Source of the DNA: Minisyncoccota bacterium
Lineage (GTDB): Bacteria; Patescibacteriota; Minisyncoccia; Phycocordibacterales; Phycocordibacteraceae
Assembly (NCBI GenBank): GCA_041660025.1
Contig: JBAZXD010000002.1
Location: 68,635 to 132,634 of the forward strand
Direction of reading: 5' to 3'
Length of the DNA stretch: 64,000 nt
Below, one piece after another: positions 10,363-26,768 of the stretch (position 1 is its first letter; each line of letters starts with the position of its first letter). The notes under the pieces are model-generated. The model searched no databases. It was not told where the DNA came from and saw only the letters and a program-made list of their open reading frames with translations. Both the position numbers and the translations under genes were made by a program.

Positions 10363-11060
10363 TGAATACGGGAACTGATACGGCAGAACTGAAGCGCCTC
10401 TTCGACACAGGGGCGCATTTCGCGCAGGTAAAGAGCCGCCGGCACCCCTCGATGAAGCCTTACCTGGTGGGTACCAAGGGGCGGCAGGAGATCATCGACC
10501 TCGTGAAGACGACCGAACAGCTCGAAGCGGCGAAGGCCGCGATGAGCGCGCTCGCGAAGGAAGGGAAGACAGTCCTCTTCGTTGGCGGGAAAGTCGAAAT
10601 TGCCGCGCTCGTCAAGTCGGCGGCGCAGGAGATCAGCGCGCCCTACGTAGCGGCGCGCTGGCTCGGCGGCACCATCTCCAACTGGAGCGAGATTAAGAAG
10701 CGGGTCGACCGCCTCGCAGAGCTTAAGGAAATGGCCGCTACCGGCGCGCTCGCCAAACAGCACACGAAGCTCGAACTCGTGAAGCTCGAACGCGAAAAGA
10801 AACGTCTCGAAGAGCGGCTCGACGGCATCACGACGCTCACAAAGCGTCCGGACGCGCTCCTCGTTGTCGACACCAAGCACGAGAAGCACGCGGTGAAGGA
10901 GGCGAACGATGCGGGCATCCCCATTCTCGCCATTATGAGTTCGGACTGCGATCTCCGCGACGCGGCGTACCCGATCGTCGCGAACGATACCTCGCGCGAG
11001 ACGGTCGGGCTTATCCTCTCTGAACTCGCAGGAGCTTTCCAGAAGGGGCAAACAGTGTAA
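10362..11060 (+). CDS. rpsB: 30S ribosomal protein S2
   Basis: 'HFAQVKSRRHPSMKPYLVGTKGRQEIIDLVKT...LFVGGKVEIAALV...LLVVDTKHEKHAVKEANDAGIPILAIMSSDCD' is present. The start overlaps the prfA stop by 1 nt. Confidence 0.9.
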   Translation: MNTGTDTAELKRLFDTGAHFAQVKSRRHPSMKPYLVGTKGRQEIIDLVKTTEQLEAAKAAMSALAKEGKTVLFVGGKVEIAALVKSAAQEISAPYVAARWLGGTISNWSEIKKRVDRLAELKEMAATGALAKQHTKLELVKLEREKKRLEERLDGITTLTKRPDALLVVDTKHEKHAVKEANDAGIPILAIMSSDCDLRDAAYPIVANDTSRETVGLILSELAGAFQKGQTV

Positions 11061-11172
11061 GCTTTGCGGACAAAGCTTTCTCCCTGCGCTCGTTCGGAAA
11101 AATGAAATAGGAATTTCTTTTCCGCTCACTCGCTTGGTAGTAAATTCCGCGTGTTATTATTTTTGAATCATT

Positions 11173-11754
11173 ATGGAAATCACGACCGATGTTATAAAAG
11201 AGTTGCGCGAGATGACGGGCGTATCCGTTATGCAGTGCAAGAAGGCGCTCGAGGAGGCGGGCGGCGACCTCGCAAAAGCCGCGGTCATCCTCAAGAAACA
11301 CTCGGCCGCCTCGGCCGAGAAGAAGGCAGAACGGACGCTCGCGGCCGGCGTCATCGGGAGCTACATCCACGATGGAAGCATCGGCGCGATGGTGGCGCTC
11401 TCGTGCGAGACCGATTTCGTCGCCAAGAATCCCGAATTCGGCGAGCTCGCGCGTTCGCTCGCGATGCAGGTCGCCGCGACGAACCCGGCGTATACAGCAT
11501 CTTCAGAGATTTCCGAGGACGCGAAGCAGGCGGCGACCGCCGTATTCCTGAAGGAAGTTGCCGATAAACCGAAAGAGATGCAGGCGAAGATACTCGAGGG
11601 GAAGCTCGCAAGCTACTTCCGCGACCAGGTGCTCCTCGAACAGCTATTCATCAAGGACGAGAATAAGACGGTGCGCAACCTCCTCGACGAAGCGACGCAG
11701 AAGTTCGGTGAACGCGTCGAGATAAGCCGCTTCACACGTCTTTCCGTCCGCTGA
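11173..11754 (+). CDS. tsf: elongation factor Ts (short form)
   Basis: 'ITTDVIKELREMTGVSVMQCKKALEEAGGDLAKAAVIL...AGVIGSYIHDGSIGAMVALSCETDFVAKN' matches EF-Ts; the rpsB-tsf order is conserved. Confidence 0.88.
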   Translation: MEITTDVIKELREMTGVSVMQCKKALEEAGGDLAKAAVILKKHSAASAEKKAERTLAAGVIGSYIHDGSIGAMVALSCETDFVAKNPEFGELARSLAMQVAATNPAYTASSEISEDAKQAATAVFLKEVADKPKEMQAKILEGKLASYFRDQVLLEQLFIKDENKTVRNLLDEATQKFGERVEISRFTRLSVR

Positions 11755-11759
11755 TCGCT

Positions 11760-12170
11760 ATGGGGAATCTCATCTTCCTTCTCATCACGCTCGCGCTCCT
11801 CGGCGGCTTCGTTGCGCTCACCGAGTACGAGGCGCGGCGCGGCGCGCGCGTATTCGCGCGCGAACGCGCACACCTCGACCGCAACGTCGAGCGCATTGAG
11901 TTTGTCCTCCGACACATTGATCTCGCTGCATTCCTACGGGACGAAGTGCGGCGCCTCGCCGGACGTGTCGGCCACGACATCGCGCATCTCTCGCTCCAAA
12001 CCGTGCGGAACGCTGAACGACTGCTCACGCGCCTCGTCCGGCACCTGCGTTCCCGGCACGAGGTCGAGAGCGCGCCGCGCGAGAGCACCCGGGCGTTCGT
12101 GAAGACACTCTCCGATTTCAAGGGTCGCCTGAAGGCGACGCATCCGGAGATTTCTGATATACAACACTAG
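11760..12170 (+). CDS. hypothetical protein with an N-terminal transmembrane anchor
   Basis: 136-aa ORF with N-terminal 'LIFLLITLALLGGFVAL' followed by an Arg-rich helical region. No family recognised. Confidence 0.45.
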   Translation: MGNLIFLLITLALLGGFVALTEYEARRGARVFARERAHLDRNVERIEFVLRHIDLAAFLRDEVRRLAGRVGHDIAHLSLQTVRNAERLLTRLVRHLRSRHEVESAPRESTRAFVKTLSDFKGRLKATHPEISDIQH

Positions 12171-12175
12171 GAGAG

Positions 12176-12249
12176 GCCGCCTTAGCTCAGTTGGCTAGAG
12201 CGCCACTTTTGTAAAGTGGATGTCCTCGGTTCGAATCCGAGAGGCGGCT
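12176..12249 (+). tRNA. tRNA-Thr (anticodon UGU)
   Basis: Cloverleaf read by eye: acceptor GCCGCCT/AGGCGGC, D-arm GCTCAGTTGGCTAGAGC, anticodon stem CCACT/AGTGG with loop TTTGTAA (anticodon TGT), T-arm CTCGG-TTCGAAT-CCGAG, discriminator T. CCA is not encoded. Confidence 0.85.
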
Positions 12250-12926
12250 CAAAGGTTAGTAGTCGTTTGAGAGGTCGTTGAGACCAGCGCGCCCTTGGGG
12301 AACTGTTTCTCGAGGTCCTCGAGCGTGGTGAAGCCGTAATACTGCTTGCCGTTGATGACGAATGCGGGGAAAGTGCTCTTCACCTTCGTAACGGCGATGA
12401 ACGTTTTCAGGGCGCCGAGGTCGAGATTGTAGTCGAACGAATACACGCGCAAGGTCGGATACGTGTCGCGCAGGTAGGAGAGCGCGTAGCCTGCCTTGTC
12501 GCAGTCGGCGCAATCGCCGGCATTGCTATAGAAATAGAGAACCGTCACCGGCTTCGTACCGCAGGCCTCCGCGAGCTTCTTTGTGATGAGATAGTCGCGT
12601 ATCTCGAGCAGGGAGTATTGCTCCTTCAGCCGTATCACTTGCGCCGTGTCGCTCCCGAGCTGATTCTCGGCGTAGGCAAGGCGATTGCCCATATCTGCGA
12701 GTTCGCCGGTCAGCGCGATAGAAGAGGCGGCGCTGTCGCAGGGCGCCGCCTCGAGCAGGGAGAACTGTGTGTCGAGCGACAGGATGTCGATGGAGAGCTG
12801 GTCCTCGATGGTCGAGAGTTCGTTGATGCGTACGCGGTTCAGGTAGCTGATGGCGTACGCGACCGTGCCCGCAAGCAGGACGGTGATACCGAGAGCTATG
12901 AGCGCGTTCCGGGCAACGAGTGACAT
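12249..12926 (-). CDS. membrane-anchored thioredoxin-fold protein (CxxC 'CADC')
   Basis: N-terminal TM helix 'ALIALGITVLLAGTVAYAI', a coiled linker, and a C-terminal domain 'VTVLYFYSNAGDCADCDKAGYALSYL...FPAFVINGKQYYG' typical of thioredoxin/DsbA-like folds. Its 3' end abuts the tRNA 3' end. Confidence 0.6.
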   Translation of the reverse strand: MSLVARNALIALGITVLLAGTVAYAISYLNRVRINELSTIEDQLSIDILSLDTQFSLLEAAPCDSAASSIALTGELADMGNRLAYAENQLGSDTAQVIRLKEQYSLLEIRDYLITKKLAEACGTKPVTVLYFYSNAGDCADCDKAGYALSYLRDTYPTLRVYSFDYNLDLGALKTFIAVTKVKSTFPAFVINGKQYYGFTTLEDLEKQFPKGALVSTTSQTTTNL

Positions 12927-12929
12927 ATA

Positions 12930-14168
12930 TCAATTCCGCCAATCGCGGCGTTTGCCGGTGGTGACATCAGCCGTGGCACGCAGAAGCCACAGCGGCACGA
13001 CAAGCCCGTAGAGCAGGGTGTAGGAAACGAGTCCGAACGTAATATCTCCCGGCGTCTTCGAGATGCGTTTCCCGATGAGAATGAGGGAGAGCGAGGCGAG
13101 GAGCGTTACCGCACCAAGAACGAGGTAGAAGTTAGCGGAGAAGAACAGCCACTCGAATGAGCCGTGCGGTACGAGCGCATAAGAAAGCGGAACGCCGGCG
13201 CGGACTTCGAAGGCGGCAAAGGCGTTCCGCGCAATCTCAAAGAGCATAAAAAAGAACAGCACCATACCGCTCCCGATAGCGAGAAGCGCGCTTGGGAGCA
13301 TAAGCATACCGAGTGCGCCGTGGCGGCGGTTCGCGATGAGTCCGCGGTATTCGCCGAAGATGTTCCGCAGGAAGCCGGACGTCCAGCGCGTGCGCTGCTT
13401 CAAGAGCTTCATGATGGTACTCGGCGCTTTCGTATAGACGCGCGCGCGCGGTGCGTTCTCGATACCGTACCCCGCCTGTTGGATGCGGAGCGCCATTTCC
13501 ATATCCTCAGTCTGGTGTCCGTAACGGAATCCGCCGAGCTTCTCAATGATGGCGCGCCGGTAGAACGAGAAGGGTCCCGGTGTGACGTAGAGGCCGTTTA
13601 TCGAGGCGATGGCGTGTCGGAATGTGATGCCGAAGATATATTCGGCATTTTGCATATGCTGGAGGATGTTCCCCGGCTTGTGGATCGACATCGCACCGGT
13701 CGCGGCCGCGACGTTCGGGTCCTCAAAGCACGGGAGGATCTCGAGGAGCGCGTCCGGCTCGACGAACGAGTCTGCATCAAGACAGGCGACAAACTCGGCA
13801 TTTGTCGCGGCGACGCCAGCATTTAGCGCGGTGTGTTTGCCGCCGTTCTCTTTGCGGATGATGCGCACTTGCGCTTCGCTCGCGAAACGCGCCATAGCGG
13901 CGGGCGTTGCATCGGTCGAGCCGTCATCGACGAGGATGATCTCGAGTTTCTCCTTCGGATAATCGAGCGCGAGTAGTGATTCGCACGTCGCGGCGACGGT
14001 CGCCGCTTCATTCCAGCAGGGGACGATAATGGCGACGGAAGGCGTCGCGGTACCGGGGGTTCGCGCGCGCGCCGCGCGCGCGGGCTTCGAGAGAAGCGTC
14101 ACAAGGACGAAAGACTCGAAGAATATCGCGATGAAGAGGAACGGATAGGCAAGCGCCTCCAGACTCAT
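12930..14168 (-). CDS. family-2 glycosyltransferase, processive/membrane-integrated type
   Basis: 'VAIIVPCWNEAATVAATCESL...LEIILVDDGSTD...FVACLDADSFVEPDAL' carries the GT-A DxD and 'QxxRW' ('LKQRTRWTSG') motifs, with multiple C-terminal TM helices. Start set at internal Met 'MSLEALAYPFLF'; the ORF-track start at 14261 is likely an upstream read-in. Confidence 0.75.
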   Translation of the reverse strand: MSLEALAYPFLFIAIFFESFVLVTLLSKPARAARARTPGTATPSVAIIVPCWNEAATVAATCESLLALDYPKEKLEIILVDDGSTDATPAAMARFASEAQVRIIRKENGGKHTALNAGVAATNAEFVACLDADSFVEPDALLEILPCFEDPNVAAATGAMSIHKPGNILQHMQNAEYIFGITFRHAIASINGLYVTPGPFSFYRRAIIEKLGGFRYGHQTEDMEMALRIQQAGYGIENAPRARVYTKAPSTIMKLLKQRTRWTSGFLRNIFGEYRGLIANRRHGALGMLMLPSALLAIGSGMVLFFFMLFEIARNAFAAFEVRAGVPLSYALVPHGSFEWLFFSANFYLVLGAVTLLASLSLILIGKRISKTPGDITFGLVSYTLLYGLVVPLWLLRATADVTTGKRRDWRN

Positions 14169-14199
14169 ATATAGCGCCACTGTAGCACAAAATCTCCCG

Positions 14200-15351
14200 C
14201 TAACGAATCGTCGCGCCGAAGTTCTTAACGGTGGCGGCTTCGAGCTTGGAGTGGAGGGCATTCACCTCGTCATTCGTAAGTGTCTTGTCGATGCTTCGGT
14301 AGGTGATTCGGTACGCGTAGCTGACCCTGCCGGCACCCAATTTTTCCTCATTCTCATACGTATCCACGAGCGTCATCTGTTCGGCCATATCACCGACCAC
14401 ATCGCGTACGAGGTCGAAATAATTGTTCGGGACGAAATCCTTGCCGACGACAAAGGAGATATCGCGCACGACCGGCGGATATTTACTGACCTCGACGAAC
14501 GCGTGTCCCAATCGGAGTTGTTTCTTTACGCGTTCATCCTCGCTCCAGAAAAGGCGGATATCGGGAACCTCGGTGCCGATTATCGCGAGCCGTTCGAGCC
14601 CGAAGCCGAATGCCCAGCCGTGGTATCCGACAACGCCCATCTTTTTGAGTACGCTCGCCTTCGGCATACCTCCACCGAGTATTTCGATCCACTCGCTCCC
14701 CGCTGCTTGTGCCGCCGCGCCCGAGACCCCGACCTCCACCTCAAGCGATGGGTCGGTGTACGGGAAGGTGTCGGGATTGAAACGGAATTTCGTATCTTCG
14801 CCGAAGACGCTTTTCACCACCTGCGAGAGCGCGCTCTTAAGGTCCTCGATATCGAGCGGCTCTGACTCTGGAGTAAGGAACCAGCCGCCCATCTGATGGA
14901 AGATGTTCATATGGCGACGGTCGATCTCATCCTTACGATAGACCTTGCCGTAGCAGAGCGCGCCCATCGATTCTCCGCGCAGGATACGCTCCTTGATCTC
15001 GGGCTGGTTGAGGTAGTAGTACCAAAAGACAGTGTCGTGCGTGCGCAGGATATTCTCGGTATCCACGTAGTACGTGTCTGAAGAAGAGCGCGCGGGGTGG
15101 TCGGCAGGGAAGTCGAAGAGGTCGAAGCTGATGCTTGCGGGCACGATTTCCGGTATCTCGATATCATCGAAGTCTTTGAAGACAGGGAGCGCTTTCACGC
15201 GCTCAACAATCTCACGGAGCGGGCTTCCGGGCGTGCGGGAGAGGTCCGGCATCGCCAGATACCGCTTCATACGCTCCGCGTCCACGTCGGTCCGTTGCTC
15301 CAGTTCGGCTCGGAGCAGCTCCTCCTCGGCCCTCGATATTCTGATATCCAT
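14200..15351 (-). CDS. pheS: phenylalanine--tRNA ligase, single-chain mitochondrial-like form (PheS catalytic core fused to a C-terminal FDX-ACB anticodon-binding domain)
   Basis: Class II motifs 'FPYTDPSLEVEV' and 'GWAFGFGLERLAIIG' are PheS alpha-subunit hallmarks. The C-terminal ~90 aa 'RDISFVVGKDFVPNNYFDLVRDVVGDMAEQMTLVDTYENEEKLGAGRVSYAYRITYRSIDKTLTNDEVNALHSKLEAATVKNFGATIR' matches the FDX-ACB domain of PheT C-termini and mitochondrial FARS2. The typical bacterial PheS N-terminal coiled coil is absent. Confidence 0.85.
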   Translation of the reverse strand: MDIRISRAEEELLRAELEQRTDVDAERMKRYLAMPDLSRTPGSPLREIVERVKALPVFKDFDDIEIPEIVPASISFDLFDFPADHPARSSSDTYYVDTENILRTHDTVFWYYYLNQPEIKERILRGESMGALCYGKVYRKDEIDRRHMNIFHQMGGWFLTPESEPLDIEDLKSALSQVVKSVFGEDTKFRFNPDTFPYTDPSLEVEVGVSGAAAQAAGSEWIEILGGGMPKASVLKKMGVVGYHGWAFGFGLERLAIIGTEVPDIRLFWSEDERVKKQLRLGHAFVEVSKYPPVVRDISFVVGKDFVPNNYFDLVRDVVGDMAEQMTLVDTYENEEKLGAGRVSYAYRITYRSIDKTLTNDEVNALHSKLEAATVKNFGATIR

Positions 15352-15400
15352 AGATATTTTAGAATATCACATTTTGTGCTAGAATATAGGCAACAAACGT

Positions 15401-17485
15401 ATGGCTAAAACGACCGACACAGAGCCTAAAAAGAAGGCGTACGACGCCTCGTCTATTACCGTCCTTGAGGGGCTCGAGCCGGTGCGGAAGCGACCGGGTA
15501 TGTATATCGGGACGACCGGTCCCGAGGGACTCCACCATCTCATCTGGGAAATATTCGACAATGCGCGCGACGAGGCGATGGGCGGATATGCGAACGACAT
15601 AGAGGTCGCGCTTCTCCCCGACGGCTATGTGCGCGTGGCGGACAACGGTCGCGGCATTCCGGTCGGCATCCACCCGAAGACGAAAGTCTCCGCGCTCGAG
15701 ACCATTATGACCACGCTTCACGCCGGCGGTAAGTTCGGCGGAGAAGAGTCGGGCTACAAGGTCTCGGGCGGCCTTCACGGCGTCGGTGCGTCAGTGGTGA
15801 ACGCGCTTTCGGTGCACACCTCGGTCATCGTGCACAAGGAGGGCGGCATACACCTGCAGGAATATAAGATCGGGAAACCGCTCGCGAAGGTGAAGAAAGT
15901 CGGCACGACGAAGCTCGTCGGTACCATCGTGAAGTTCAAGCCGGATGCGGAGATATTCAAAGAGGGTGTCGAGTGGGATTGGGAAAAGATCGTCGCGCAC
16001 CTGCGCCAGCAAGCCTACTTGGTGAAAGGGGTTCGCATCAGTGTCATCGACGCGCGCGCTTGCGCGCGTGTCGCCGATGAAGACTGTTTCTATCTGCGCG
16101 AATTGAAGGGATTCGCAGCACCATCGCTCACCTTCTACTTCGAGGGTGGGCTGAAGTCGCTCGTCGCTTTCCATAACAAGCATCAGACGCCGGTGCACAA
16201 GAACATCTTTTATATCGACCGCGAACACGAGAATGTCGCGGTTGAAGTCGCGCTCCAGTATGTCGACGACCTCACGCCGCGGATCACCGCGTTCGCGAAC
16301 AACACCTACAACAGCGAGGGCGGCACGCACATTACCGGCTTCAAGACGGCGCTCACGCGCTCGCTCAACACGTATGGGCGGAACGCGAACATTCTCAAGG
16401 AGAAGGATGAAAACTTCACTGGCGACGATGTGCTCGAGGGTATCACGGCGGTGGTCTCAGTGAAGCTTCCCGAGATCCAGTTCGAGGGACAGACGAAGGC
16501 GAAGCTCGGCTCGGTCGAGGCGCAGGGCGCGGTCGCTACGGTCTTCGGCGAGGCGCTCGGCTCCTTCCTCGAAGAGAATCCGGATGACGCGCGCGCCATC
16601 ATCAACAAAGTCCTTCTCGCGCTCAAGGCGCGTAAGGCGGCGAAAGCGGCGAAGGACTCGGTCCTGCGCAAGGGCGCGCTCGAGGGTATGACGCTCCCGG
16701 GTAAGCTCGCGGACTGCCAGACCAAGAGTGCAGAAGAGGGCGAGCTGTTCATCGTCGAGGGGGATTCGGCCGGCGGCTCGAGCAAGCAGGGTAGGGACCG
16801 CCGCACGCAAGCCATCCTCCCTTTGCGCGGCAAGATCCTCAACGTTGAACGCGCGCGCATTGACCGTATGCTCGCGTCGGTTGAGATTCGCGCGCTCGTT
16901 ATCGCGATGGGCACCGCCATCGGGGACGTCTTTGATATATCGAAACTCCGTTATCATAAAATAATCATCGCGACCGATGCTGACGTCGACGGTGCGCACA
17001 TTCGCACACTTCTCCTCACGCTCCTCTATCGCCACTTCCGGCCGATTATTGAAGGCGGCTTCGTCTATATTGCCCAACCGCCGCTCTATAAAATCACGAA
17101 AGGGAAGTCAATCGCGTATGCGTATTCGGATAAAGAAAAAGAAGTCGTACTGAAAGAGTTCGGCGTTGCCCCTTCGGAGGTCTCTGAGAATCCTCTGGAA
17201 GGCGATGAGGAAACCGTCGGAGAAGAAGCGGAAGCGGAAGCGGAAATCGCGAGCGCGAAGAAGCCAGCGAAGGTGAATATCCAGCGCTACAAAGGTCTCG
17301 GAGAAATGAACCCGAGCGAGCTTTGGGAGACGACGATGGACCCCGCGCGGCGCGTGTTGAAGCGAGTGAACGTCGGGGATGCTGAAGCGGCTGATCGCAT
17401 CTTCGATATCCTTATGGGCACTGACGTCGCTTCGCGCAAGTCGTTCATCCAGTCGAACGCGAAACTCGCGAATCTGGACGTCTAA
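15401..17485 (+). CDS. gyrB: DNA gyrase subunit B
   Basis: GHKL ATPase 'HHLIWEIFDNARDEAMGG...DNGRGIPV...GLHGVGASVVNALS'. Toprim 'ELFIVEGDSAGGSSKQGRDRRTQAILPLRGKILN'. C-terminal 'KGLGEMNPSELWETTMDP'. Confidence 0.92.
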   Translation: MAKTTDTEPKKKAYDASSITVLEGLEPVRKRPGMYIGTTGPEGLHHLIWEIFDNARDEAMGGYANDIEVALLPDGYVRVADNGRGIPVGIHPKTKVSALETIMTTLHAGGKFGGEESGYKVSGGLHGVGASVVNALSVHTSVIVHKEGGIHLQEYKIGKPLAKVKKVGTTKLVGTIVKFKPDAEIFKEGVEWDWEKIVAHLRQQAYLVKGVRISVIDARACARVADEDCFYLRELKGFAAPSLTFYFEGGLKSLVAFHNKHQTPVHKNIFYIDREHENVAVEVALQYVDDLTPRITAFANNTYNSEGGTHITGFKTALTRSLNTYGRNANILKEKDENFTGDDVLEGITAVVSVKLPEIQFEGQTKAKLGSVEAQGAVATVFGEALGSFLEENPDDARAIINKVLLALKARKAAKAAKDSVLRKGALEGMTLPGKLADCQTKSAEEGELFIVEGDSAGGSSKQGRDRRTQAILPLRGKILNVERARIDRMLASVEIRALVIAMGTAIGDVFDISKLRYHKIIIATDADVDGAHIRTLLLTLLYRHFRPIIEGGFVYIAQPPLYKITKGKSIAYAYSDKEKEVVLKEFGVAPSEVSENPLEGDEETVGEEAEAEAEIASAKKPAKVNIQRYKGLGEMNPSELWETTMDPARRVLKRVNVGDAEAADRIFDILMGTDVASRKSFIQSNAKLANLDV

Positions 17486-18255
17486 GATCCGAGAACCGTT
17501 ACCTTCGCGGAAGCACTGTTGTTGTCCGTACTCGATTCTGCGACCGTGCGGTCGAAGTTCGCGGTAATCGAGATCATCTGATCGACCCCTTTGTTCGATT
17601 GGTCGAAGCCGAGCGTGTAGTCGATACTGTCGCCTGGGCCGAGCGTTTGCTGGGTCTGGGATTGGTAGAGATACGCGGTTTGCGTCGGGATGGATGCGCT
17701 CCAGCGCCACGGACCGCTTACGTTCGTACCGATATTTTTAATAGTGAATTTGACTGCGGGGCGGCTGTCGGCAGGGACCGTCGAAGTTGCGACAAATGAT
17801 TCTGCTGAATTCGAGGCGAGGTAGCCGACTGCATTGATGGTCACGACGAAGTCGGGAAGGCCTGAGAGCACACCGGTCGCAAGGGCGCCACCGATCTGAT
17901 ACGTGCCGCCCGTCTTTTTTCCCGCCGTAGGAGCGGTTTTCGTCTCGGCTGGAGCGGTCGGTGAGGTCGTACTTACCTCTGTCGAAGAACCCTCTTCGCC
18001 GAAGGGGATTGTCGTCGATGCGACGGGCGTCGGGACAACCGAGAGGGTAGGCTCGTCCGCCGGAGTGAAGACCGAGCCGAGGTAGACGGCGGCACTGCCG
18101 ATACGACCGGCGACGTCCGGGACATAGCGTGTCGAATAGACCGCGAGCCACATACTCGCGCCGATAAGCGCAACGAATCCAACCACGGCGAGCGTGTTTA
18201 TGAAGAGGTGGCGATTTGAGGCAAGAGACTGCGATTCGTTCATAGATAAATACAT
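17482..18255 (-). CDS. membrane-anchored surface protein with a Ser/Thr/Pro-rich linker and a CARDB-like beta-sandwich domain (hypothetical)
   Basis: N-terminal TM 'LAVVGFVALIGASMWLAVY', linker 'PTLSVVPTPVASTTIPFGEEGSSTEVSTTSPTAPAETKTAPTAG', and C-terminal 'VKFTIKNIGTNVSGPWRWSASIPTQ...ANFDRTVAESSTDNNSASAKVTVLG' resembling CARDB domains. Divergent from the sortase gene. Confidence 0.55.
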   Translation of the reverse strand: MYLSMNESQSLASNRHLFINTLAVVGFVALIGASMWLAVYSTRYVPDVAGRIGSAAVYLGSVFTPADEPTLSVVPTPVASTTIPFGEEGSSTEVSTTSPTAPAETKTAPTAGKKTGGTYQIGGALATGVLSGLPDFVVTINAVGYLASNSAESFVATSTVPADSRPAVKFTIKNIGTNVSGPWRWSASIPTQTAYLYQSQTQQTLGPGDSIDYTLGFDQSNKGVDQMISITANFDRTVAESSTDNNSASAKVTVLGS

Positions 18256-18345
18256 ACCATACTGTACTTTCTATGTCAAGTGTCTGGCGGCGACACCACG
18301 TCTTGACAAGGATGCTACAATGGCGTATTAATGGATTAAGACTAT

Positions 18346-19017
18346 ATGGGGAAAATCATCAACTTCATCGTCCGACTCATCCGGGTCGGCAAGCAGGCGT
18401 ATACGAGGAAGTGGAGCTTCTTCGGCATTTTCGTCATAGCATTCCTCGGCAGTGTGAATATGCTCGCCACACTCGATCTGTTGCCGCAGGTTCCGCTCAC
18501 CGCCGTACTGGCGGCGACGAATCCGACCGTTCCTCAACACGCGCGCGGACAGGAACCGGTCGCGATCGTCGAGCTACCGACGAGCATTGAGATCAAGACC
18601 ATCGATCTCCTCGCGACCATTGAGAATCCGACGGCGACCGATGCCGCACTACTCGACCAGGGGCTGTTGCGCGGTGCGGTGCGTTACCCGACGTCGGCCA
18701 AGCTTGGCGAGACGGGCAATGTCGTCCTTTTCGGCCACTCGAGCTATCTGCCGGTCGTGGGCAACCAAGCGTACAAGACATTCAACGGCATTCAGAAGCT
18801 CGCGGCAGGAGAAGTCATTACCGTATATTCCCTTGATACGGCATATACGTATCGGGTACGGACCGTCGCGAAAGAGAGCGCGGATAATAATACGGCGATC
18901 CCGCTCTCTGTTTCCGGGAAGGCGCTTACGCTCGTGACCTGCAATTCTTTCGCCACGAAGGCAGACCGTTTCGTCGTTACCGCGGACTTTGTTGAAAGTC
19001 GTTCGATTTCCGGCTAA
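18346..19017 (+). CDS. sortase-family transpeptidase
   Basis: N-terminal TM anchor, catalytic His in 'GNVVLFGHSSY', Cys in 'ALTLVTCNSF' (sortase TLxTC motif) and a downstream Arg 'ADRFVVTADF'. Confidence 0.78.
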   Translation: MGKIINFIVRLIRVGKQAYTRKWSFFGIFVIAFLGSVNMLATLDLLPQVPLTAVLAATNPTVPQHARGQEPVAIVELPTSIEIKTIDLLATIENPTATDAALLDQGLLRGAVRYPTSAKLGETGNVVLFGHSSYLPVVGNQAYKTFNGIQKLAAGEVITVYSLDTAYTYRVRTVAKESADNNTAIPLSVSGKALTLVTCNSFATKADRFVVTADFVESRSISG

Positions 19018-22976: not shown

Positions 22977-25900
22977 TCAGAGCGGCTTCAGCTCCTCGAT
23001 AGCGAGCGAAGGCTCGCCGTTCCTGACCGAGACCTTGCCCTTCACCAGGAGGCACGTACCGGGTGCGATAAGAGTCGCGTGTTCCTTTAAGAGCTTCGGG
23101 AAGATAACCGCCTCTATCGAGTCGGTCGTGTCCTCAACGGTGATGAACGCCATCTTCTCTCCGCTCTTGGTAAGGATGTTACGCACGATGGTAACGAGGA
23201 CCGGCAGGATGAGCAGCATTCCCGGTTGCGGCTCCTCCTTCACTTTCTTGATGGAGAGGTGAGCTTTCTTGGTGATAGCCTCGTGCGCGTCGAGCGGATG
23301 ACCGCTCACATAGATACCGAGCAGTTCTTTTTCCCACGCAAGCTTGTCGAGGAGAGACGTCGCTTTTCCTTCGGGAAGGATAAGGGAAGGAGCGGCGAAC
23401 GCGCCGAAGAGGGAATCTTGCGGTGCCGCCGCCGTCGCTTCACGGTGGAATGCAAGCATGGTTTCAATATTTTCGAGCATCGAGCCGCGCTTGTGCTCCG
23501 ACGTGTTGAGAGAATCTAGCGCGCCGCACTTAATCAATGATTCCAGTGATTTTCGGTTCAGATTCTTCGAACCGACGCGCGAGAGGAAGTCGGATAGCGT
23601 CTTGAAGGGACCGTGCGTTTTTCGTTCGGCGATGATGGCTTCCGAAATTCCGTCGCCGAAATTTTTTATTGAAGAAAGTCCAAATCGAATTGCTTCGCCG
23701 TTTGAAACTACCGTAAATACCGTTCCGCTCTCGTTCACATCTGGCGGGAGCACGGGGATTCCCATGCGCTTCGCCTCGGCGACGAAGATGGAGATCTGCT
23801 CAGTGTCGCCCGAGTCGGCGGTGAGGACTGCCGCGAGATATTCCACCGGATAATTCGCTTTCATATAGGCGGTCTGATAGGCGACCTTTCCGTAAGATGC
23901 GGCGTGCGCCTTATTGAAGCCGTAGGCGGCGAACGGCTCTATCAGCTCCCACAGTTTTTCGGAGAGCTGTTTGGAGAGTTTGCCGTATTCCATAAAACCT
24001 TTCATCAATTTCTGCTTCTCCGCCTGCATGACCTTCGGGATTTTCTTGCCCATCGCTTTGCGGAGCGCGTCCGCTTCGAGCCACGAATAACCGCCGAGCT
24101 TGATGGCGGTGAGAAGCACATCGTCCTGATAGACGAGAATGCCGTAGGAGAAATCAAGATACTCTTTCATCCGCGGGTCGAGATAATGGATGAGCTTCGG
24201 GTTATGTTTGCGTTCAATGTAGCTGGGAATCGTTTCCATCGGCCCCGGGCGGTACAGGGCGACCATTGCGTTGATGTCGTGGATGGTGGACGGCTTCAGC
24301 TCTTTGAGCCAGCGAGTCATGCCGGAGCCATTCAGCTGAAACGTTCCTTCGGTTTCGCCGCGCGCGAGCATCTGATAGGTCTTTGCGTCGTCGATCGGTA
24401 CGTTCTCGATATCGACCGCAATTGAGCGCGATTCCTTCACTCGCGCGACCGCATCAGCGAGAATGGCGAGGTTCTTGATACCGAGAAAATCGAATTTCAG
24501 GAGCCCGACGCCGCCGTACTCGTCGGTGATGGAATACATATCGTACTGCGTGATGATCTTTCCGGTGCCTTTCGGGTCGGGCTGAATAGGAGTCCATTCA
24601 ATGAGCGGGGTCGGTGCGACCACGACGCCCGCTGCGTGGACGCCGACGTGTCGCACACATCCCTCGATGCGTTTCGCGAGGTCGAGGATTTCCCGGGACT
24701 CATCGTCCTCATCGTAGAGCGCTTTCAGGTCCGGTTCCAGCTCGAGCGCATGGTCAATGGTCATCGGGAATCCCTGGGAGCCCATCGGGATAAGTTTCGC
24801 GATTCGGTCTCCGGTGGTGTAGGAGTGTCCGAGCGCTCGCGCGACGTCGCGCACCGCCGCGCGCGCCATCATCGTGCCGAAGGTGCCGATCTGTGCCACG
24901 TGGTCCTCCCCATATTTTTTCTTCGTATACGCGATCATCTCGTCGCGTCGATTATCGGCGATGTCCATATCAATATCCGGCGCTTTCGGGCGCTCCGGGT
25001 TAAGGAACCGTTCGAACGGCAGTTTATAGAAAAGCGGGTTCACGTTCGTGATGCCGATGAGATATGCGACGAGACTTCCGGCTGCGCTTCCGCGCGTGGT
25101 GGTGAGGATGCCAGCTCCTCGTGCGAAGGCGAGCAGGTCGGCGACGATGAGGTAGTACACGGCGAAGCCTTTGCCGATGATGATGTTCAATTCGTATTCG
25201 ATGCGGTCGGTGACCTCTTTCGTTTCTTCGAGCTTTCGCGTGGCAATACCGGCATAGGCCTTTGCACGCAGTTCTTCATCGTGATTTTTGAAGCCGGGTG
25301 AGACGGGAACTGCGGGGAAGGTCCATTTCCCGAGGTCGAAGGAGAGGGAACAGCGGTCGGCGATCTTCCGTGAGTTGTCTACCGCCTCGGGGATATCGTT
25401 GAAGAACGAGAGTGCGCGCTTCTCGCCGATGAACGAGAAATCCTCGTCCTCGTTCTTTCCGTGCGCGCCGTGCTGGATGCGGCGCATGATCTCGGTCGCC
25501 TCGCGGTCGTCGGGCGCGAGGTAATAGACGTCGTTCTGGGCGACAAGCGGCGTTGCGCTCGCGCGAGCGAGTGCGACGATTTTTTTCATCAATGCTTCGT
25601 GCCCCTCGACTTTCGGATGGTGCGTAATCTCGAGGAATACATTTTCAGTACCAAAGATGCCCTTGAATTCCGAAAGCGCGGCCGCCGCGCCGTTCTCGTC
25701 GCCCGCGCGCAGGAGCTGGGCGACGTCGCCGGCAAAAGAGGGAATGAGCGCGATGAGACCGCGAGCATGTTCGCGTAGCAACTCTTTATCCATACGCGGC
25801 CGCTCATAGAACCCTTCCGTCCACGACTTCGTCACAAGCGCGAGAAGATTGGTGTAGCCCTCATTATTTTCCGCTAAGAGGACGATGCGCGAGCGCTTCG

Positions 25901-26153
25901 CGTCGATGTTCTGGTCTCGGTCGTGGCGCGAGCGCGGGGCGAGATAGGCGTCGACGCCGAGAATCGGCTTGATGCCCGCACTGGTCGCCGCCTTATAGAA
26001 CTCGATTGCGCCGTGCATATTGCCGGCGTCAGTGAGTGCGAGCGCATCCATCCCCTCCTTTTTCGCTTTCTCCACAAGCTCGTCCACCTTCGGGAGCGCC
26101 TGGAGAAACGAATAGTGGCTGTGCGTATGCAGGTGGATGAAGCGACTTACCAT
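22977..26153 (-). CDS. dnaE: DNA polymerase III alpha subunit (DnaE), compact form of about 1059 aa
   Basis: PHP N-terminus 'MVSRFIHLHTHSHYSFLQALPKVDELVEKAKKEGMDALALTDAGNMHGAIEFYKA' and the Pol III alpha core follow. The ORF track extends to 26864 only because the antisense of rnhB carries no stops; start set at ATG 26153. Confidence 0.9.
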   Translation of the reverse strand: MVSRFIHLHTHSHYSFLQALPKVDELVEKAKKEGMDALALTDAGNMHGAIEFYKAATSAGIKPILGVDAYLAPRSRHDRDQNIDAKRSRIVLLAENNEGYTNLLALVTKSWTEGFYERPRMDKELLREHARGLIALIPSFAGDVAQLLRAGDENGAAAALSEFKGIFGTENVFLEITHHPKVEGHEALMKKIVALARASATPLVAQNDVYYLAPDDREATEIMRRIQHGAHGKNEDEDFSFIGEKRALSFFNDIPEAVDNSRKIADRCSLSFDLGKWTFPAVPVSPGFKNHDEELRAKAYAGIATRKLEETKEVTDRIEYELNIIIGKGFAVYYLIVADLLAFARGAGILTTTRGSAAGSLVAYLIGITNVNPLFYKLPFERFLNPERPKAPDIDMDIADNRRDEMIAYTKKKYGEDHVAQIGTFGTMMARAAVRDVARALGHSYTTGDRIAKLIPMGSQGFPMTIDHALELEPDLKALYDEDDESREILDLAKRIEGCVRHVGVHAAGVVVAPTPLIEWTPIQPDPKGTGKIITQYDMYSITDEYGGVGLLKFDFLGIKNLAILADAVARVKESRSIAVDIENVPIDDAKTYQMLARGETEGTFQLNGSGMTRWLKELKPSTIHDINAMVALYRPGPMETIPSYIERKHNPKLIHYLDPRMKEYLDFSYGILVYQDDVLLTAIKLGGYSWLEADALRKAMGKKIPKVMQAEKQKLMKGFMEYGKLSKQLSEKLWELIEPFAAYGFNKAHAASYGKVAYQTAYMKANYPVEYLAAVLTADSGDTEQISIFVAEAKRMGIPVLPPDVNESGTVFTVVSNGEAIRFGLSSIKNFGDGISEAIIAERKTHGPFKTLSDFLSRVGSKNLNRKSLESLIKCGALDSLNTSEHKRGSMLENIETMLAFHREATAAAPQDSLFGAFAAPSLILPEGKATSLLDKLAWEKELLGIYVSGHPLDAHEAITKKAHLSIKKVKEEPQPGMLLILPVLVTIVRNILTKSGEKMAFITVEDTTDSIEAVIFPKLLKEHATLIAPGTCLLVKGKVSVRNGEPSLAIEELKPL

Positions 26154-26174
26154 GCGCTCCAGTATACTTTCTGT

Positions 26175-26768
26175 ATGCGATTTATGCTCGGGGTGGATGA
26201 GGCGGGGCGGGGGCCTCTTGCGGGGCCGGTAGCGGTCGGCGTGGTCGCCGTACCGGAGGGATTCGATGTGGCGCGGGAGTTCCCGGGAGTTGCAGACTCG
26301 AAAAAGCTCTCGGAAAAGAATCGCGAGAAGATTTTTACACTGCTTACCACGCGCGTCGCGGCGGGCGATGCGCGCTTCGCAGTCGAATTCGAAAGTGCCG
26401 AGGTTATTGATAAGGAAGGCATCGCGGTGGCGGTGCGCCGCGCGCTCGCGCGCGGCGTGAATGCGCTCGCTCCAGATGCGGCGCTCGTGCGTGTCCAGCT
26501 CGACGGCGCGCTTCACGCGCCGCCTGAATATTCCCAAGAAACCATCATCAACGGCGACGAACTCGTCCCGCTCATCTCGCTCGCCTCCATCGCGGCGAAG
26601 GTGGCGCGCGACCGGCTGATGGTGGAGGTCGCGAAAGAGTATCCGCTCTACGGTTTCGAACAGCATAAAGGCTACGGTACTCGGGCGCACTACGAAATGC
26701 TCGAGAAACACGGCCTCTGCGCTATCCACCGCCGCTCCTTCATACACCTTGATTTTAGAGACAAATAG
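26175..26768 (+). CDS. rnhB: ribonuclease HII
   Basis: 'MLGVDEAGRGPLAGPVAVGVVAV...GVADSKKLSEKNRE' is the RNase HII DEDD signature. Start at ATG 26175 or 26184. Divergent from dnaE with only about 21-30 bp between the starts. Confidence 0.85.
   Translation: MRFMLGVDEAGRGPLAGPVAVGVVAVPEGFDVAREFPGVADSKKLSEKNREKIFTLLTTRVAAGDARFAVEFESAEVIDKEGIAVAVRRALARGVNALAPDAALVRVQLDGALHAPPEYSQETIINGDELVPLISLASIAAKVARDRLMVEVAKEYPLYGFEQHKGYGTRAHYEMLEKHGLCAIHRRSFIHLDFRDK

What the first reader, a model, noticed from the sequence alone, without database searches (positions are those of the whole stretch)
14200..15351. Single-chain, mitochondrial-type phenylalanyl-tRNA synthetase (PheS core + FDX-ACB domain)
The 383-aa product has the PheS class II catalytic motifs (FPYTDPSLEVEV, GWAFGFGLERLAIIG). 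It ends in a domain that aligns by eye with the ferredoxin-fold anticodon-binding (FDX-ACB) module: RDISFVV...FYDLVRDVVGD...YRITYRS.DKTLTNDEV. In bacteria that module normally sits at the C-terminus of the beta subunit PheT. In mitochondrial FARS2 it is fused to the alpha-like catalytic core, giving a monomeric enzyme. No pheT follows in this window. A FARS2-like PheRS in a bacterium would matter for understanding minimal translation systems and the origin of the organellar enzyme.
Basis: partly seen in the sequence, partly recalled or inferred. Interest (0 to 1): 0.78.

Follow-up and report, generated by a model that had tools for sequence, protein, structure and literature searches.

The report
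Single-chain phenylalanyl-tRNA synthetase in CPR bacterium
This ultra-small (CPR/Patescibacteria) bacterium encodes a one-piece phenylalanine-tRNA charging enzyme built like the human mitochondrial one instead of the two-subunit enzyme textbooks give for all bacteria, and the same gene is conserved across hundreds of related species.

Summary
ORF 14200-15351 (-) encodes 383 aa with a PheS-type class II catalytic core (Pfam tRNA-synt_2d, aa 43-278, E 2e-51) fused to an FDX-ACB anticodon-binding domain (aa 289-383, E 6e-22). The closest solved structure by sequence and by predicted fold is human mitochondrial PheRS, over the full length.

It is not a misassembly. The same two-domain gene, usually next to gyrB, occurs in at least 284 GTDB species. 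The 80 best are Parcubacteria lineages or unclassified Patescibacteria MAGs. A related form occurs in code-25 Gracilibacteria. dN/dS is about 0.04. All four residues that read anticodon base G34 in the human enzyme are invariant, as are the motif 2 and motif 3 arginines and the Ala that sizes the Phe pocket.

It falls below every NCBIfam cut-off (pheS_mito, pheS, SrmL), and NCBI calls it "hypothetical protein". In NJ trees it forms a clade (92%) separate from eukaryotic FARS2.

No pheT-like sequence is in the window or in 83 related loci, but genome-wide absence of pheT could not be tested. Best reading: this is the cell's editing-less, probably monomeric PheRS (about 0.75). No paper describing this in bacteria was found.

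The parts
14200..15351 (-). Whole gene for the single-chain PheRS (383 aa plus stop codon at 14200-14202)
   Evidence: ORF list. 100% identical to NCBI/JGI protein P0001 from a Candidatus Paceibacterota MAG, on a 137 kb contig.
15226..15351 (-). N-terminal helical segment (aa 1-42) ending in the family motif RMKRYLAMPDLSRTPGSPL. It is probably a truncated remnant of the PheS coiled-coil arm.
   Evidence: The AF2 model has helices at aa 8-18 and 23-33. Pfam Phe_tRNA-synt_N is not detected. The motif is conserved in family alignment A1 and present in 23 of the 150 representatives in the phmmer scan. Homology to the end of the E. coli PheS coiled-coil is by eye only.
14518..15225 (-). Class II PheS-type catalytic core (aa 43-278). 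It carries motif 2 (VYR139KDEID..H147..FHQ153), the Phe pocket (F196-P-Y198-T, A247, W110, G155, W157) and motif 3 (GLER254).
   Evidence: Pfam tRNA-synt_2d at 1.9e-51. Residue conservation in 237 family members. Aligned with human FARS2 and E. coli PheS.
14488..14517 (-). Short inter-domain linker (aa 279-288, LRLGHAFVEV). It joins the point where E. coli PheS ends (..LKQFK) to the start of the FDX-ACB domain. Inferred to be a hinge.
   Evidence: Alignments. pLDDT dips here to 78-85. The hinge role is taken from human mitochondrial PheRS residues 311-323 (PMC7540514).
14203..14487 (-). FDX-ACB (ferredoxin-fold anticodon-binding) domain, aa 289-383, with the G34-reading residues D330, Y332, S344 and R383
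   Evidence: Pfam FDX-ACB at 6.2e-22, full profile length. 37% identity and 76.6 bits to the human FARS2 anticodon-binding domain, against 25% and 33.5 bits to the E. coli PheT C-terminus. The four residues are invariant or nearly so in 237 homologs.
15401..17485 (+). gyrB, the divergently transcribed neighbour 49 nt away and the conserved syntenic partner of the gene
   Evidence: ORF translation. gyrB lies within 1.5 kb of the PheRS gene in 62 of the 67 related loci that hold it. Pfam labels in L001-L003.
12930..14168 (-). Family-2 glycosyltransferase gene immediately downstream. The start is probably Met32 of the listed ORF, which leaves a 31-nt gap rather than an overlap with the PheRS gene. 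It is syntenic context, not part of the enzyme.
   Evidence: ORF list. Orthologous 414-aa GT2 genes follow the PheRS gene in L001-L003. The GT2 hit is present in 42 of 83 loci.

Best explanation
The gene encodes a functional single-chain phenylalanyl-tRNA synthetase. It is most likely the only PheRS of this Paceibacteria-class (CPR/Patescibacteria) bacterium.

Proposed mechanism, by homology to human mitochondrial PheRS:
- The C-terminal FDX-ACB domain binds the GAA anticodon of tRNA-Phe. It reads G34 through D330 (hydrogen bonds to N1/N2), Y332 (stacking), S344 and R383.
- A short hinge (aa 279-288) lets this domain swing relative to the core, between closed and open states.
- The class II core activates Phe with ATP using the motif 2 arginine R139 and the motif 3 arginine R254. 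The aromatic pocket is F196/Y198, and A247 sets its size. The core then transfers Phe to A76.
- No beta subunit is involved, so there is no B3/B4 editing site. Fidelity against Tyr and m-Tyr must come from the synthetic site alone.

What is shown: the architecture, the fold, residue conservation, purifying selection, vertical inheritance in a housekeeping neighbourhood, and wide distribution in CPR.

What is inferred: catalytic activity, the monomeric state, lack of editing, and absence of pheS/pheT elsewhere in the genome.
For: - Domains: both Pfam domains hit strongly.
- Closest solved relative: human mitochondrial PheRS by sequence (E 7e-54) and by fold (Foldseek E about 1e-33 over 394-412 columns). 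The best TM-score, 0.62, is to the tRNA-bound open state 3tup_A.
- Anticodon reading: the hmit-PheRS G34 contacts Asp364, Phe366, Ser375 and Arg414 (PMC7540514) align to D330, Y332, S344 and R383. In 237 CPR homologs D330 is kept in 235, position 332 is Tyr in 195 and Phe in 42, and S344 and R383 are kept in all 237.
- Catalytic residues: R139, H147, F151-H152-Q153, F196-P197, T199, S202, G245, W246, A247, G249, G251 and R254 are 100% conserved.
- Selection: dN/dS is about 0.04-0.05 against four orthologs, with synonymous sites near saturation. Both domains are constrained.
- Distribution: at least 284 GTDB species. The best 80 are all Patescibacteria at 63-85% identity over the full length. 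The family extends to Wolfe-, Staskawicz-, Nealson- and Portnoybacteria and to code-25 Gracilibacteria.
- Inheritance: gyrB is adjacent in 62 of 67 loci, and identity to the window protein tracks GyrB identity (Pearson r 0.73, Spearman 0.75). This fits a vertically inherited housekeeping gene.
- No second copy nearby: there is exactly one PheS-like gene per locus and no B1-B5 PheT homology in 1.33 Mb of window plus related loci.
- Precedent: a core plus FDX-ACB chain is known to be a fully active monomer in mitochondria (PMC3275996).
Against: - Genome-wide absence of pheT and of a second pheS was not tested. Only 64 kb of this genome, plus syntenic 4-21 kb pieces of relatives, could be read.
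- The protein scores below all equivalog cut-offs: pheS_mito 215.6 against 258.35, pheS 157 against 237.45. Its top NCBIfam hit by E-value is the 'PheS-related mystery ligase SrmL' model, at 219 against 300.
- The Glu of the conserved FHQxE motif (Glu159 in hmit-PheRS, which lines the pocket) is Gly155 here, in all 117 members of this subfamily. It comes with L157W and F198Y changes. Gln124 of hmit-PheRS is Trp110. A changed substrate preference cannot be excluded from sequence.
- A 44%-identical homolog sits in a non-housekeeping context in an 'Oligoflexia' MAG. This shows that family members can exist as accessory genes.
- There is no biochemical evidence.
Confidence: 0.75

Rival explanations
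1. It is an accessory PheS-like paralog (a 'mystery ligase' in the sense of NCBIfam SrmL) that coexists with a canonical (alpha-beta)2 PheRS encoded elsewhere. It would do something other than housekeeping Phe-tRNA-Phe synthesis, for example charging a non-canonical substrate or acting in a tRNA-dependent biosynthetic step.
For: - The best NCBIfam E-value is to NF051887 SrmL.
- The pocket is altered: E to G155, L to W157, F to Y198, Q to W110.
- The homolog P0125 in an Oligoflexia MAG lies among peptidase, GCS2 and racemase-like genes.
- Whole-genome absence of pheST is unverified.
Against: - The SrmL score of 219 is far below the 300-bit cut-off. Among 95 full-length nearest cluster representatives only one (P0140) reached E 1e-75 against SrmL, at 273.8 bits, still under the cut-off, whereas 87 of the 95 reached E 1e-75 against pheS_mito.
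- All G34-reading residues and the Ala that restricts the pocket to Phe are invariant.
- The gene sits in a conserved gyrB/tsf/rpsB neighbourhood and evolves in step with GyrB.
- It is present across two deep CPR classes with 0.5-0.8 Mb genomes, where redundant synthetases are unlikely. The redundancy argument is inference.
- The sister Parcubacteria subfamily keeps an acidic residue (Asp155) with Leu157 and Phe198, so the pocket change is a within-family variation.
Confidence: 0.17
2. Question of origin rather than function: the resemblance to FARS2 is convergent. A CPR ancestor independently fused its own pheS to the 3' end of its own pheT (the B8 domain), so the gene says nothing about where the mitochondrial enzyme came from.
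For: - For the core alone, the bacterial pheS profile scores higher than the mitochondrial profile (158.6 against 135.3 bits). The FDX-ACB domain alone scores almost equally on pheT_bact (69) and pheS_mito (73.4).
- The CPR-type and FARS2-type groups are reciprocally separate, not nested.
- The fusion point is simply the natural PheS C-terminus joined to the natural start of B8, a junction that could easily arise twice.
- No canonical CPR PheS or PheT could be sampled as a control.
Against: - Pairwise, the FDX-ACB domain is clearly closer to FARS2 (37% identity, 76.6 bits) than to E. coli PheT (25%, 33.5 bits) or to M. tuberculosis, S. haemolyticus, P. aeruginosa and T. thermophilus PheT (24-36 bits).
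- Mean FDX-ACB identity is 35% between CPR-type and FARS2-type, 26% between CPR-type and PheT, and 22% between FARS2-type and PheT.
- E. coli PheT's own FDX-ACB does not detect human FARS2 at E<=10, whereas the CPR domain detects both.
- In the core NJ tree the five canonical PheS sequences form a 100% clade apart from all single-chain forms.
Confidence: 0.35
3. It is an assembly or gene-calling artefact: a chimeric join of a pheS fragment to a pheT 3' end.
For: None found.
Against: - More than 230 distinct full-length homologs from NCBI, JGI, ENA and Logan assemblies share the architecture.
- 80 independent GTDB genomes carry it at full length.
- Synteny is identical on contigs up to 693 kb.
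- There is a continuous reading frame under strong purifying selection in both domains.
Confidence: 0.01

Closest known systems
Mitochondrial phenylalanyl-tRNA synthetase (human FARS2, yeast MSF1; NCBIfam TIGR00469 pheS_mito; AARS Online family PheRS-M; PDB 3CMQ, 3TUP)
   Same: - Same two-domain chain: a PheS-type class II core followed directly by an FDX-ACB anticodon-binding domain, with no beta-subunit domains.
- Best sequence and fold match over the full length.
- Identical G34-reading residue set and a shared YRITYR strand.
- Truncated N-terminal arm.
- A 60%-identical CPR relative (P0121) passes the TIGR00469 cut-off.
   Different: - Bacterial host, and no targeting peptide.
- Shorter: it lacks the roughly 35-aa insertion that splits the FARS2 core match into two stretches.
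- Distinct N-terminal motif (..KRYLAMPDLSRTPGSPL) in place of the FARS2 ..NLH..HPL.. motif.
- This protein scores 215.6, under the 258.35 cut-off.
- It belongs to a CPR clade (92% bootstrap) separate from FARS2-type sequences.
- Pocket residues differ: Gly155, Trp157, Tyr198 and Trp110 instead of Glu, Val (Leu in E. coli PheS), Phe and Gln.
Canonical bacterial PheRS alpha subunit PheS (TIGR00468) working with beta subunit PheT (TIGR00472) as an (alpha-beta)2 heterotetramer
   Same: - The catalytic core is homologous: about 30% identity and 128 bits to E. coli PheS, and 158.6 bits on the pheS profile.
- The C-terminal domain is homologous to PheT domain B8.
- The core ends where E. coli PheS ends.
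   Different: - There is no long N-terminal coiled-coil: Pfam Phe_tRNA-synt_N is absent.
- It is below the pheS cut-off (157 against 237.45).
- The anticodon-binding domain is in cis rather than on a separate 800-aa subunit.
- There are no B1-B7 domains (OB fold, B3/B4 editing, B5, catalytic-like module) in the gene, the window or the related loci.
- There is no adjacent pheT.
NCBIfam NF051887 'PheS-related mystery ligase SrmL'
   Same: It is the top NCBIfam hit by E-value (7.9e-65). The match spans both domains, profile positions 33-345 of 349, so SrmL evidently shares the core plus FDX-ACB layout.
   Different: The score of 219.2 is well below the curated 300-bit cut-off. None of the 10 relatives scanned individually reaches it, and only one of 95 nearest representatives (P0140, 273.8 bits) reached even E 1e-75 against it. 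No hit in three database searches carried that name. No literature on SrmL was found. The taxa and genomic context of true SrmL proteins were not seen here.
Single-chain PheRS genes of huge phages (for example LR745206.1, 635 kb; IMGVR_UViG_3300024262_006558)
   Same: Same two-domain architecture at 359-367 aa.
   Different: - Only 27-42% identical to the window protein.
- In my trees they were assigned to the non-CPR group.
- They are encoded beside phage genes (terminase, homing endonuclease, T4-type RNA ligase) and another synthetase.

Membership tests
Mitochondrial-type monomeric PheRS (FARS2 / TIGR00469 / PheRS-M) | PheS-type class II catalytic core with motifs 1-3 | tested here: met
   Pfam tRNA-synt_2d at 1.9e-51. 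Motif 2 R139 and motif 3 R254 are invariant in 237 homologs.
Mitochondrial-type monomeric PheRS (FARS2 / TIGR00469 / PheRS-M) | FDX-ACB anticodon-binding domain fused C-terminally in the same polypeptide | tested here: met
   Pfam FDX-ACB aa 289-383, profile positions 1-94 of 94, 6.2e-22. Full-length Foldseek match to 3cmq, 3tup and 5mgw.
Mitochondrial-type monomeric PheRS (FARS2 / TIGR00469 / PheRS-M) | G34 recognition residues (hmit-PheRS Asp364, Phe366, Ser375, Arg414) | tested here: met
   D330, Y332, S344 and R383 align to them and are conserved across the family. The residue list is from PMC7540514.
Mitochondrial-type monomeric PheRS (FARS2 / TIGR00469 / PheRS-M) | Scores above the curated equivalog cut-off of TIGR00469 | tested here: not met
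   215.6 bits against a cut-off of 258.35. The relative P0121 (60% identical) scores 264.3 and passes.
Mitochondrial-type monomeric PheRS (FARS2 / TIGR00469 / PheRS-M) | Branches within the eukaryotic/organellar FARS2 clade | tested here: not met
   NJ trees of the core: CPR-type clade at 92-94% bootstrap, the remaining FARS2-type sequences at 62-75%, reciprocally separate. The method and the outgroup sampling are limited.
Mitochondrial-type monomeric PheRS (FARS2 / TIGR00469 / PheRS-M) | Active as a monomer, with no beta subunit in the compartment or genome | not testable with these tools
   The oligomeric state needs biochemistry. Only 64 kb of this genome and syntenic pieces of relatives could be read, and none holds PheT B1-B5 homology.
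Canonical bacterial PheS alpha subunit (TIGR00468) | Scores above the TIGR00468 cut-off | tested here: not met
   157 bits against 237.45. The core alone scores 158.6.
Canonical bacterial PheS alpha subunit (TIGR00468) | N-terminal coiled-coil tRNA-binding arm (Pfam Phe_tRNA-synt_N) | tested here: not met
   No such Pfam hit at E<=1. Only about 42 aa precede the core.
Canonical bacterial PheS alpha subunit (TIGR00468) | Partnered with a pheT gene, usually adjacent | tested here: not met
   The neighbours are gyrB and a GT2 glycosyltransferase. No PheT homology is in the window or in 83 loci. The rest of the genome was not tested.
PheS-related mystery ligase SrmL (NF051887) | Scores above the curated 300-bit cut-off | tested here: not met
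   219.2 bits. Nearest relatives score 194-274 bits. Only one of 95 representatives (P0140) reached E 1e-75 against this model, at 273.8 bits.
Bacterial PheT beta subunit (TIGR00472) | B1-B8 multidomain chain including the B3/B4 editing and B5 domains | tested here: not met
   Only profile positions 692-798 of 798 (B8) match, at 67 bits against a cut-off of 402.65.

The most novel reading that the evidence does not exclude
Large parts of the Candidate Phyla Radiation (Parcubacteria/Paceibacteria and code-25 Gracilibacteria) have entirely replaced the supposedly universal bacterial (alpha-beta)2 PheRS with an editing-less monomer. This bacterial lineage and mitochondrial FARS2 descend from one ancestral pheS-pheT(B8) fusion. 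On that reading the organellar enzyme was not invented in eukaryotes but inherited or acquired from a bacterial single-chain PheRS, or the reverse. The invariant pocket changes (Trp110 in both CPR subfamilies, and the Gly155/Trp157/Tyr198 triplet in this subfamily) would be an adaptation that removes the hydrogen-bond partners for Tyr and m-Tyr hydroxyls, compensating for the lost editing site.
Probability: 0.25. Interest if true: 0.85.

Novelty: new variant of a known kind. Interest (0 to 1): 0.62.

Why it matters
The 2010 PheRS review read here describes the heterotetrameric organisation of prokaryotic PheRS as conserved in all known species, and mitochondrial PheRS as the only monomeric enzyme with a class II catalytic module (PMC3275996).

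A conserved, vertically inherited single-chain PheRS in hundreds of free-standing bacterial genomes would matter in four ways:
1. It would overturn that generalisation.
2. It would provide natural bacterial examples of translation without PheRS editing, which bears on how minimal cells cope with Tyr and m-Tyr misacylation.
3. It would give the first prokaryotic relatives with which to root the origin of FARS2.
4. It explains an annotation gap. NCBI calls these genes 'hypothetical protein', so automated pipelines may score these genomes as lacking pheS/pheT marker genes.

It also offers a compact 383-aa bacterial PheRS scaffold for engineering.

Tried and rejected
- Whole-genome pheT test: not possible. 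No CPR PheT seed sequence could be obtained to drive a targeted search.
- Literature: ten full-text searches found no description of a bacterial monomeric PheRS, of pheT loss in CPR, or of SrmL. Mukai 2017 notes only that many CPR PheRS-beta subunits lack the B2 domain, so some CPR lineages do keep pheT. Meheust 2019, Jaffe 2021 and Wang 2023 say nothing relevant.
- SrmL membership: rejected on score.
- Misassembly: rejected.
- T-box or leader control: Rfam at E<=1 finds only the tRNA-Thr in 11000-18500, and the upstream gap to gyrB is 49 nt.
- tRNA-Phe identity check: no tRNA-Phe gene is in the window or in 33 related loci; only a syntenic tRNA-Thr(UGU) is.
- FDX-ACB domain tree: unresolved with 97 columns. 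CPR-type monophyly got 37%. The first attempt failed on saturated distances, and a Biopython tree timed out.
- Apparent 'canonical PheS' sequences among the 150 nearest representatives turned out to be truncated or divergent two-domain proteins. Outgroups therefore had to be taken from E. coli and from bacterial pheS carried in phage-collection records. One of these (L094) was a spurious ORF and was dropped.
- The afdb50 fold library was unavailable. The BFVD viral fold search returned only other class II synthetases.
- dN/dS for 384-codon orthologs was discarded because the ungapped comparison was misaligned.
Full report
**Observation.** The ORF is exactly as reported: 14200..15351 on the minus strand, ATG start, 383 aa. 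All quoted peptide strings are present. Pfam finds tRNA-synt_2d at aa 43-278 (1.9e-51, 175 bits) and FDX-ACB at aa 289-383 (6.2e-22, 78 bits), the latter covering the whole 94-position profile. No Phe_tRNA-synt_N (coiled-coil) domain is found.

**Organism and context.** The protein is 100% identical to a protein of a Candidatus Paceibacterota MAG (locus tag WC814_02660, 137 kb contig). NCBI calls it 'hypothetical protein' and JGI calls it 'phenylalanyl-tRNA synthetase alpha chain'. The window has about 58% G+C and is dense in housekeeping genes:
- gyrB lies 49 nt upstream and is divergently transcribed;
- a GT2 glycosyltransferase and a tRNA-Thr(UGU) lie downstream, followed by tsf and rpsB;
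- farther away are rpoB/rpoC, dnaE, smc, RNase R, hisS, dnaG and rpoD.

No pheT is in the window. tblastn with E. coli PheT gives nothing at E<=0.01, and E. coli PheS hits only this gene. Four additional PheT N-terminal queries from other taxa give only noise. Rfam finds no leader or T-box.

**Not an artefact, and not a one-off.**
- The first database search returned 120 full-length hits at 69-100% identity, all with both Pfam domains.
- The gyrB-PheRS-GT2 order recurs on independent contigs, including a 693 kb JGI contig.
- A scan of one genome per GTDB species found 284 encoded relatives using only six narrow peptide patterns. The best 80 are all Patescibacteria MAGs at 63-85% identity over the full length. 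Those with a lineage name are Kaiser-, Colwell-, Zambryski-, Taylor-, Vogel- and Nomurabacteria, Paceibacterota and similar.
- A more divergent branch (44% identical, P0125) leads to Wolfe-, Staskawicz-, Nealson- and Portnoybacteria.
- A still more divergent branch (36%, P0132) has 13 in-frame TGA codons, several at invariant Gly columns. This indicates genetic code 25. Its relatives are named Candidatus Gracilibacteria or 'uncultured bacterium (gcode 4)'.
- gyrB lies within 1.5 kb in 62 of the 67 loci that hold it. Identity of the PheRS to the window copy correlates with identity of GyrB (Pearson r 0.73, Spearman 0.75; means 69% and 74%).
- Against four 85%-identical orthologs, pS is about 0.70-0.75 (near saturation) and pN about 0.09-0.10, giving dN/dS of about 0.04-0.05. 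Both the core (pN about 0.07) and the FDX-ACB domain (pN about 0.14) are constrained.

This is the behaviour of an old, vertically inherited, essential-type gene.

**Structure.** An AlphaFold2 model built on a 32-sequence family alignment has mean pLDDT 88.7. Foldseek against the PDB ranks the seven human mitochondrial PheRS entries first: E about 1e-33, 394-412 aligned columns, 31-32% identity. Bacterial PheS chains follow and cover only the core. The best TM-score (0.62, rmsd 8.2 A) is to 3tup_A, the tRNA-bound open state. The closed-state entries give about 17 A rmsd. That pattern is expected if two well-modelled domains are joined by a hinge. Sequence search of the PDB agrees: human mitochondrial PheRS at 7e-54, S. 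haemolyticus PheS at 2.5e-33, and PheT chains matching only through their C-terminal 100 residues.

**Functional residues: anticodon reading.** In human mitochondrial PheRS, G34 of tRNA-Phe is read by Asp364, Phe366 (Tyr731 of the T. thermophilus beta subunit), Ser375 and Arg414. D364G abolishes activity (PMC7540514). These align to D330, Y332, S344 and R383. Counts in 237 CPR homologs:

| Residue | Conservation |
|---|---|
| D330 | 235 of 237 |
| Position 332 | Tyr in 195, Phe in 42 |
| S344 | 237 of 237 |
| R383 | 237 of 237 |

**Functional residues: catalytic core.** The following are invariant in all 237: the motif 2 arginine R139, H147, F151-H152-Q153, F196-P197, T199, S202, G245-W246-A247, G249, G251 and the motif 3 arginine R254. 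A247 corresponds to E. coli Ala294, the residue whose enlargement relaxes Phe specificity (PMC3275996).

**Functional residues: a remodelled pocket.** The Glu of FHQxE is Glu159 in the human enzyme. Together with Gln124 it hydrogen-bonds the hydroxyl of bound m-Tyr (PMC3275996). Its state in the two CPR subfamilies is as follows:

| Position | This subfamily (117 sequences) | Other Parcubacteria subfamily (120 sequences) |
|---|---|---|
| 155 | Gly, 117 of 117 | Asp, 120 of 120 |
| 157 | Trp, 117 of 117 | Leu, 110 of 120 |
| 198 | Tyr, 117 of 117 | Phe, 111 of 120 |

Gln124 of the human enzyme corresponds to an invariant Trp110 in both CPR subfamilies. I read this as coupled remodelling of an otherwise intact pocket, not as decay. 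It is also the main sequence-level reason to keep an altered-specificity rival alive.

**Mechanism proposed.** By homology, the FDX-ACB domain captures the GAA anticodon. The 10-residue linker (aa 279-288) acts as the hinge. The core makes Phe-AMP and transfers Phe to tRNA-Phe. There is no editing site, because the B3/B4 domains of PheT are absent from the chain. Architecture, fold, conservation and selection are shown. Activity, monomeric state and absence of a second PheRS are inferred.

**Comparison with known families.** NCBIfam places the protein below every cut-off:

| Model | Score (bits) | Cut-off (bits) |
|---|---|---|
| SrmL 'PheS-related mystery ligase' (NF051887) | 219.2 | 300 |
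| pheS_mito (TIGR00469) | 215.6 | 258.35 |
| pheS (TIGR00468) | 157 | 237.45 |
| pheT_bact (TIGR00472), B8 region only | 67 | 402.65 |

- A 60%-identical relative (P0121) does pass pheS_mito, at 264.3 bits.
- An exhaustive HMMER scan of 1.84 billion cluster representatives found only 190 with E<=1e-30. Of the best 150, 115 have both domains. The few that seemed to lack FDX-ACB are truncated or divergent two-domain proteins.
- Of 95 full-length representatives, 87 match pheS_mito at E<=1e-75. Only one matches SrmL at that level, at 273.8 bits, which is under its cut-off. The protein is therefore not an SrmL by NCBI's own criterion.
- Its nearest relatives outside CPR are FARS2-type proteins.

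**Relationship to FARS2.**
- For the core alone, the bacterial pheS profile (158.6 bits) beats pheS_mito (135.3). blastp gives 138 bits to human FARS2 and 128 bits to E. coli PheS. The core is therefore roughly equidistant from both.
- The FDX-ACB domain is distinctly closer to FARS2 (37% identity, 76.6 bits) than to E. coli PheT (25%, 33.5 bits) or to four other solved PheTs (24-36 bits).
- E. coli's own B8 domain does not detect human FARS2 at E<=10. The CPR domain therefore bridges the two.
- Mean FDX-ACB identities are 35% between CPR-type and FARS2-type, 26% between CPR-type and PheT, and 22% between FARS2-type and PheT.
- In an NJ tree of 222 core columns (300 bootstraps), five canonical PheS sequences (E. 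coli, Pseudomonas, Listeria and two others) form a 100% clade. The CPR-type sequences form a 92% clade and the FARS2-type sequences a 62% clade (similar).

This is consistent with one ancestral fusion shared by the bacterial and organellar forms. The trees are simple, the FDX-ACB tree is unresolved, and no canonical CPR PheS or PheT could be sampled. Convergent fusion therefore remains a serious alternative (about 0.35), and the direction of any transfer is open.

**Is it the only PheRS?** This is the key untested point. In favour:
- there is one PheS-like gene per locus;
- no PheT B1-B5 homology appears in 1.33 Mb of window plus related loci, although these loci are syntenic rather than independent samples of the genomes;
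- the gene has housekeeping synteny and evolves in step with GyrB;
- the tRNA-Phe-reading residues are invariant;
- it is present in two deep CPR classes with very small genomes;
- this architecture is known to be sufficient in mitochondria (PMC3275996).

Against:
- the remodelled pocket;
- a homolog in a non-housekeeping context in an 'Oligoflexia' MAG;
- the fact that some CPR lineages (Microgenomates) do have PheRS-beta (PMC5370408).

I put the sole-PheRS reading at about 0.75 and the accessory-paralog reading at about 0.17.

**Novelty.** Ten full-text searches found no paper describing a bacterial single-chain PheRS or pheT loss in CPR. The 2010 review of PheRS forms states that the heterotetramer is conserved in all known prokaryotes and that the mitochondrial enzyme is the only monomeric class II-core synthetase. 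The domain combination itself is visible in databases, through JGI and UniRef names and precomputed Pfam. What is new is the recognition and interpretation, not the sequences. I rate it a new variant of a known kind, with interest 0.62. It is high for an aaRS or CPR specialist, and is held down by the untested whole-genome and biochemical claims.

**Seen in passing.**
- Single-chain PheRS genes occur on huge-phage contigs: a 494 kb JGI contig that matches an IMG/VR UViG, and the 635 kb record LR745206.1.
- A code-25 Gracilibacteria homolog exists.
- There is a systematic 'hypothetical protein' annotation gap at NCBI.
- The dnaE start in the window is probably over-called.

Noticed in passing
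window 14887-14889 (G155), 14881-14883 (W157), 14758-14760 (Y198), 15022-15024 (W110), minus strand: There is a coupled triple substitution in the amino-acid pocket. All 117 Kaiserbacteria-type homologs have Gly155, Trp157 and Tyr198. In the other Parcubacteria subfamily all 120 have Asp155, 110 have Leu157 and 111 have Phe198. Canonical PheS and human FARS2 have Glu and Phe at 155 and 198. Trp110 replaces the Gln that, with that Glu, hydrogen-bonds m-Tyr in the human enzyme. This may be compensation for the missing editing domain, or it may be a specificity change.
   Followed up: partly
L096:9463-10833 (protein P0132): A 36%-identical single-chain PheRS homolog has 13 in-frame TGA codons, several at columns where the family has invariant Gly. 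This indicates genetic code 25. Its relatives are named Candidatus Gracilibacteria or 'uncultured bacterium (gcode 4)'. The architecture therefore spans at least two deep CPR classes.
   Followed up: yes
L087:10001-11104 (P0137; 494 kb JGI contig, also IMGVR_UViG_3300024262_006558 as L095) and L089:7854-8933 (LR745206.1, 635 kb uncultured phage): Huge-phage genomes encode two-domain (PheS core plus FDX-ACB) PheRS homologs of 359-367 aa. In L087 the gene sits beside a terminase, a NUMOD homing endonuclease, a T4-type RNA ligase, a PNKP-like gene and a class I (Glu/Gln-type) synthetase.
   Followed up: partly
L086:10001-11245 (P0125, MAG labelled Oligoflexia, JAIBBV010000034.1): A 44%-identical homolog carries the CPR-type N-terminal motif but lies among peptidase M20, GCS2, mandelate-racemase-like and beta-lactamase genes in a non-CPR-labelled MAG. 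This is either horizontal transfer into a larger genome, where it would be an accessory gene, or a binning error.
   Followed up: no
window 14200-15351 and homologs P0001, P0027, P0030, P0348, P0359, P0367: NCBI annotates members of this family as 'hypothetical protein' because they fall under all NCBIfam equivalog cut-offs, whereas JGI calls them PheRS alpha chain. Marker-gene pipelines that rely on TIGR00468/TIGR00472 may score these genomes as lacking PheRS genes.
   Followed up: partly
window 22977-26864 (-): The dnaE ORF is 1295 aa and its PHP domain begins only at residue 244, while the ortholog in L001 is 1062 aa. The first-start ORF call probably over-extends the N-terminus by about 230 aa, or this copy has a real extension.
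   Followed up: no
window 154-549 (+): A small ORF matches Pfam 23S_rRNA_IVP / bAvd, the family encoded in 23S rRNA intervening sequences and used as a DGR accessory protein. No rRNA gene or DGR was looked for nearby.
   Followed up: no
window 12176-12250 (+) and the corresponding position in 28 of 33 related loci: A tRNA-Thr(UGU) gene keeps its place 2-3 kb downstream of the PheRS gene across most Paceibacteria loci examined. This is a further marker of conserved synteny. No tRNA-Phe gene was seen in any of these loci.
   Followed up: partly
window 15352-15400: Only 49 nt separate the divergent start codons of the PheRS gene and gyrB. Promoters for both genes must overlap or lie inside coding sequence. 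There is no room for the leader-peptide or T-box control seen for pheST in other bacteria, and Rfam finds none.
   Followed up: partly
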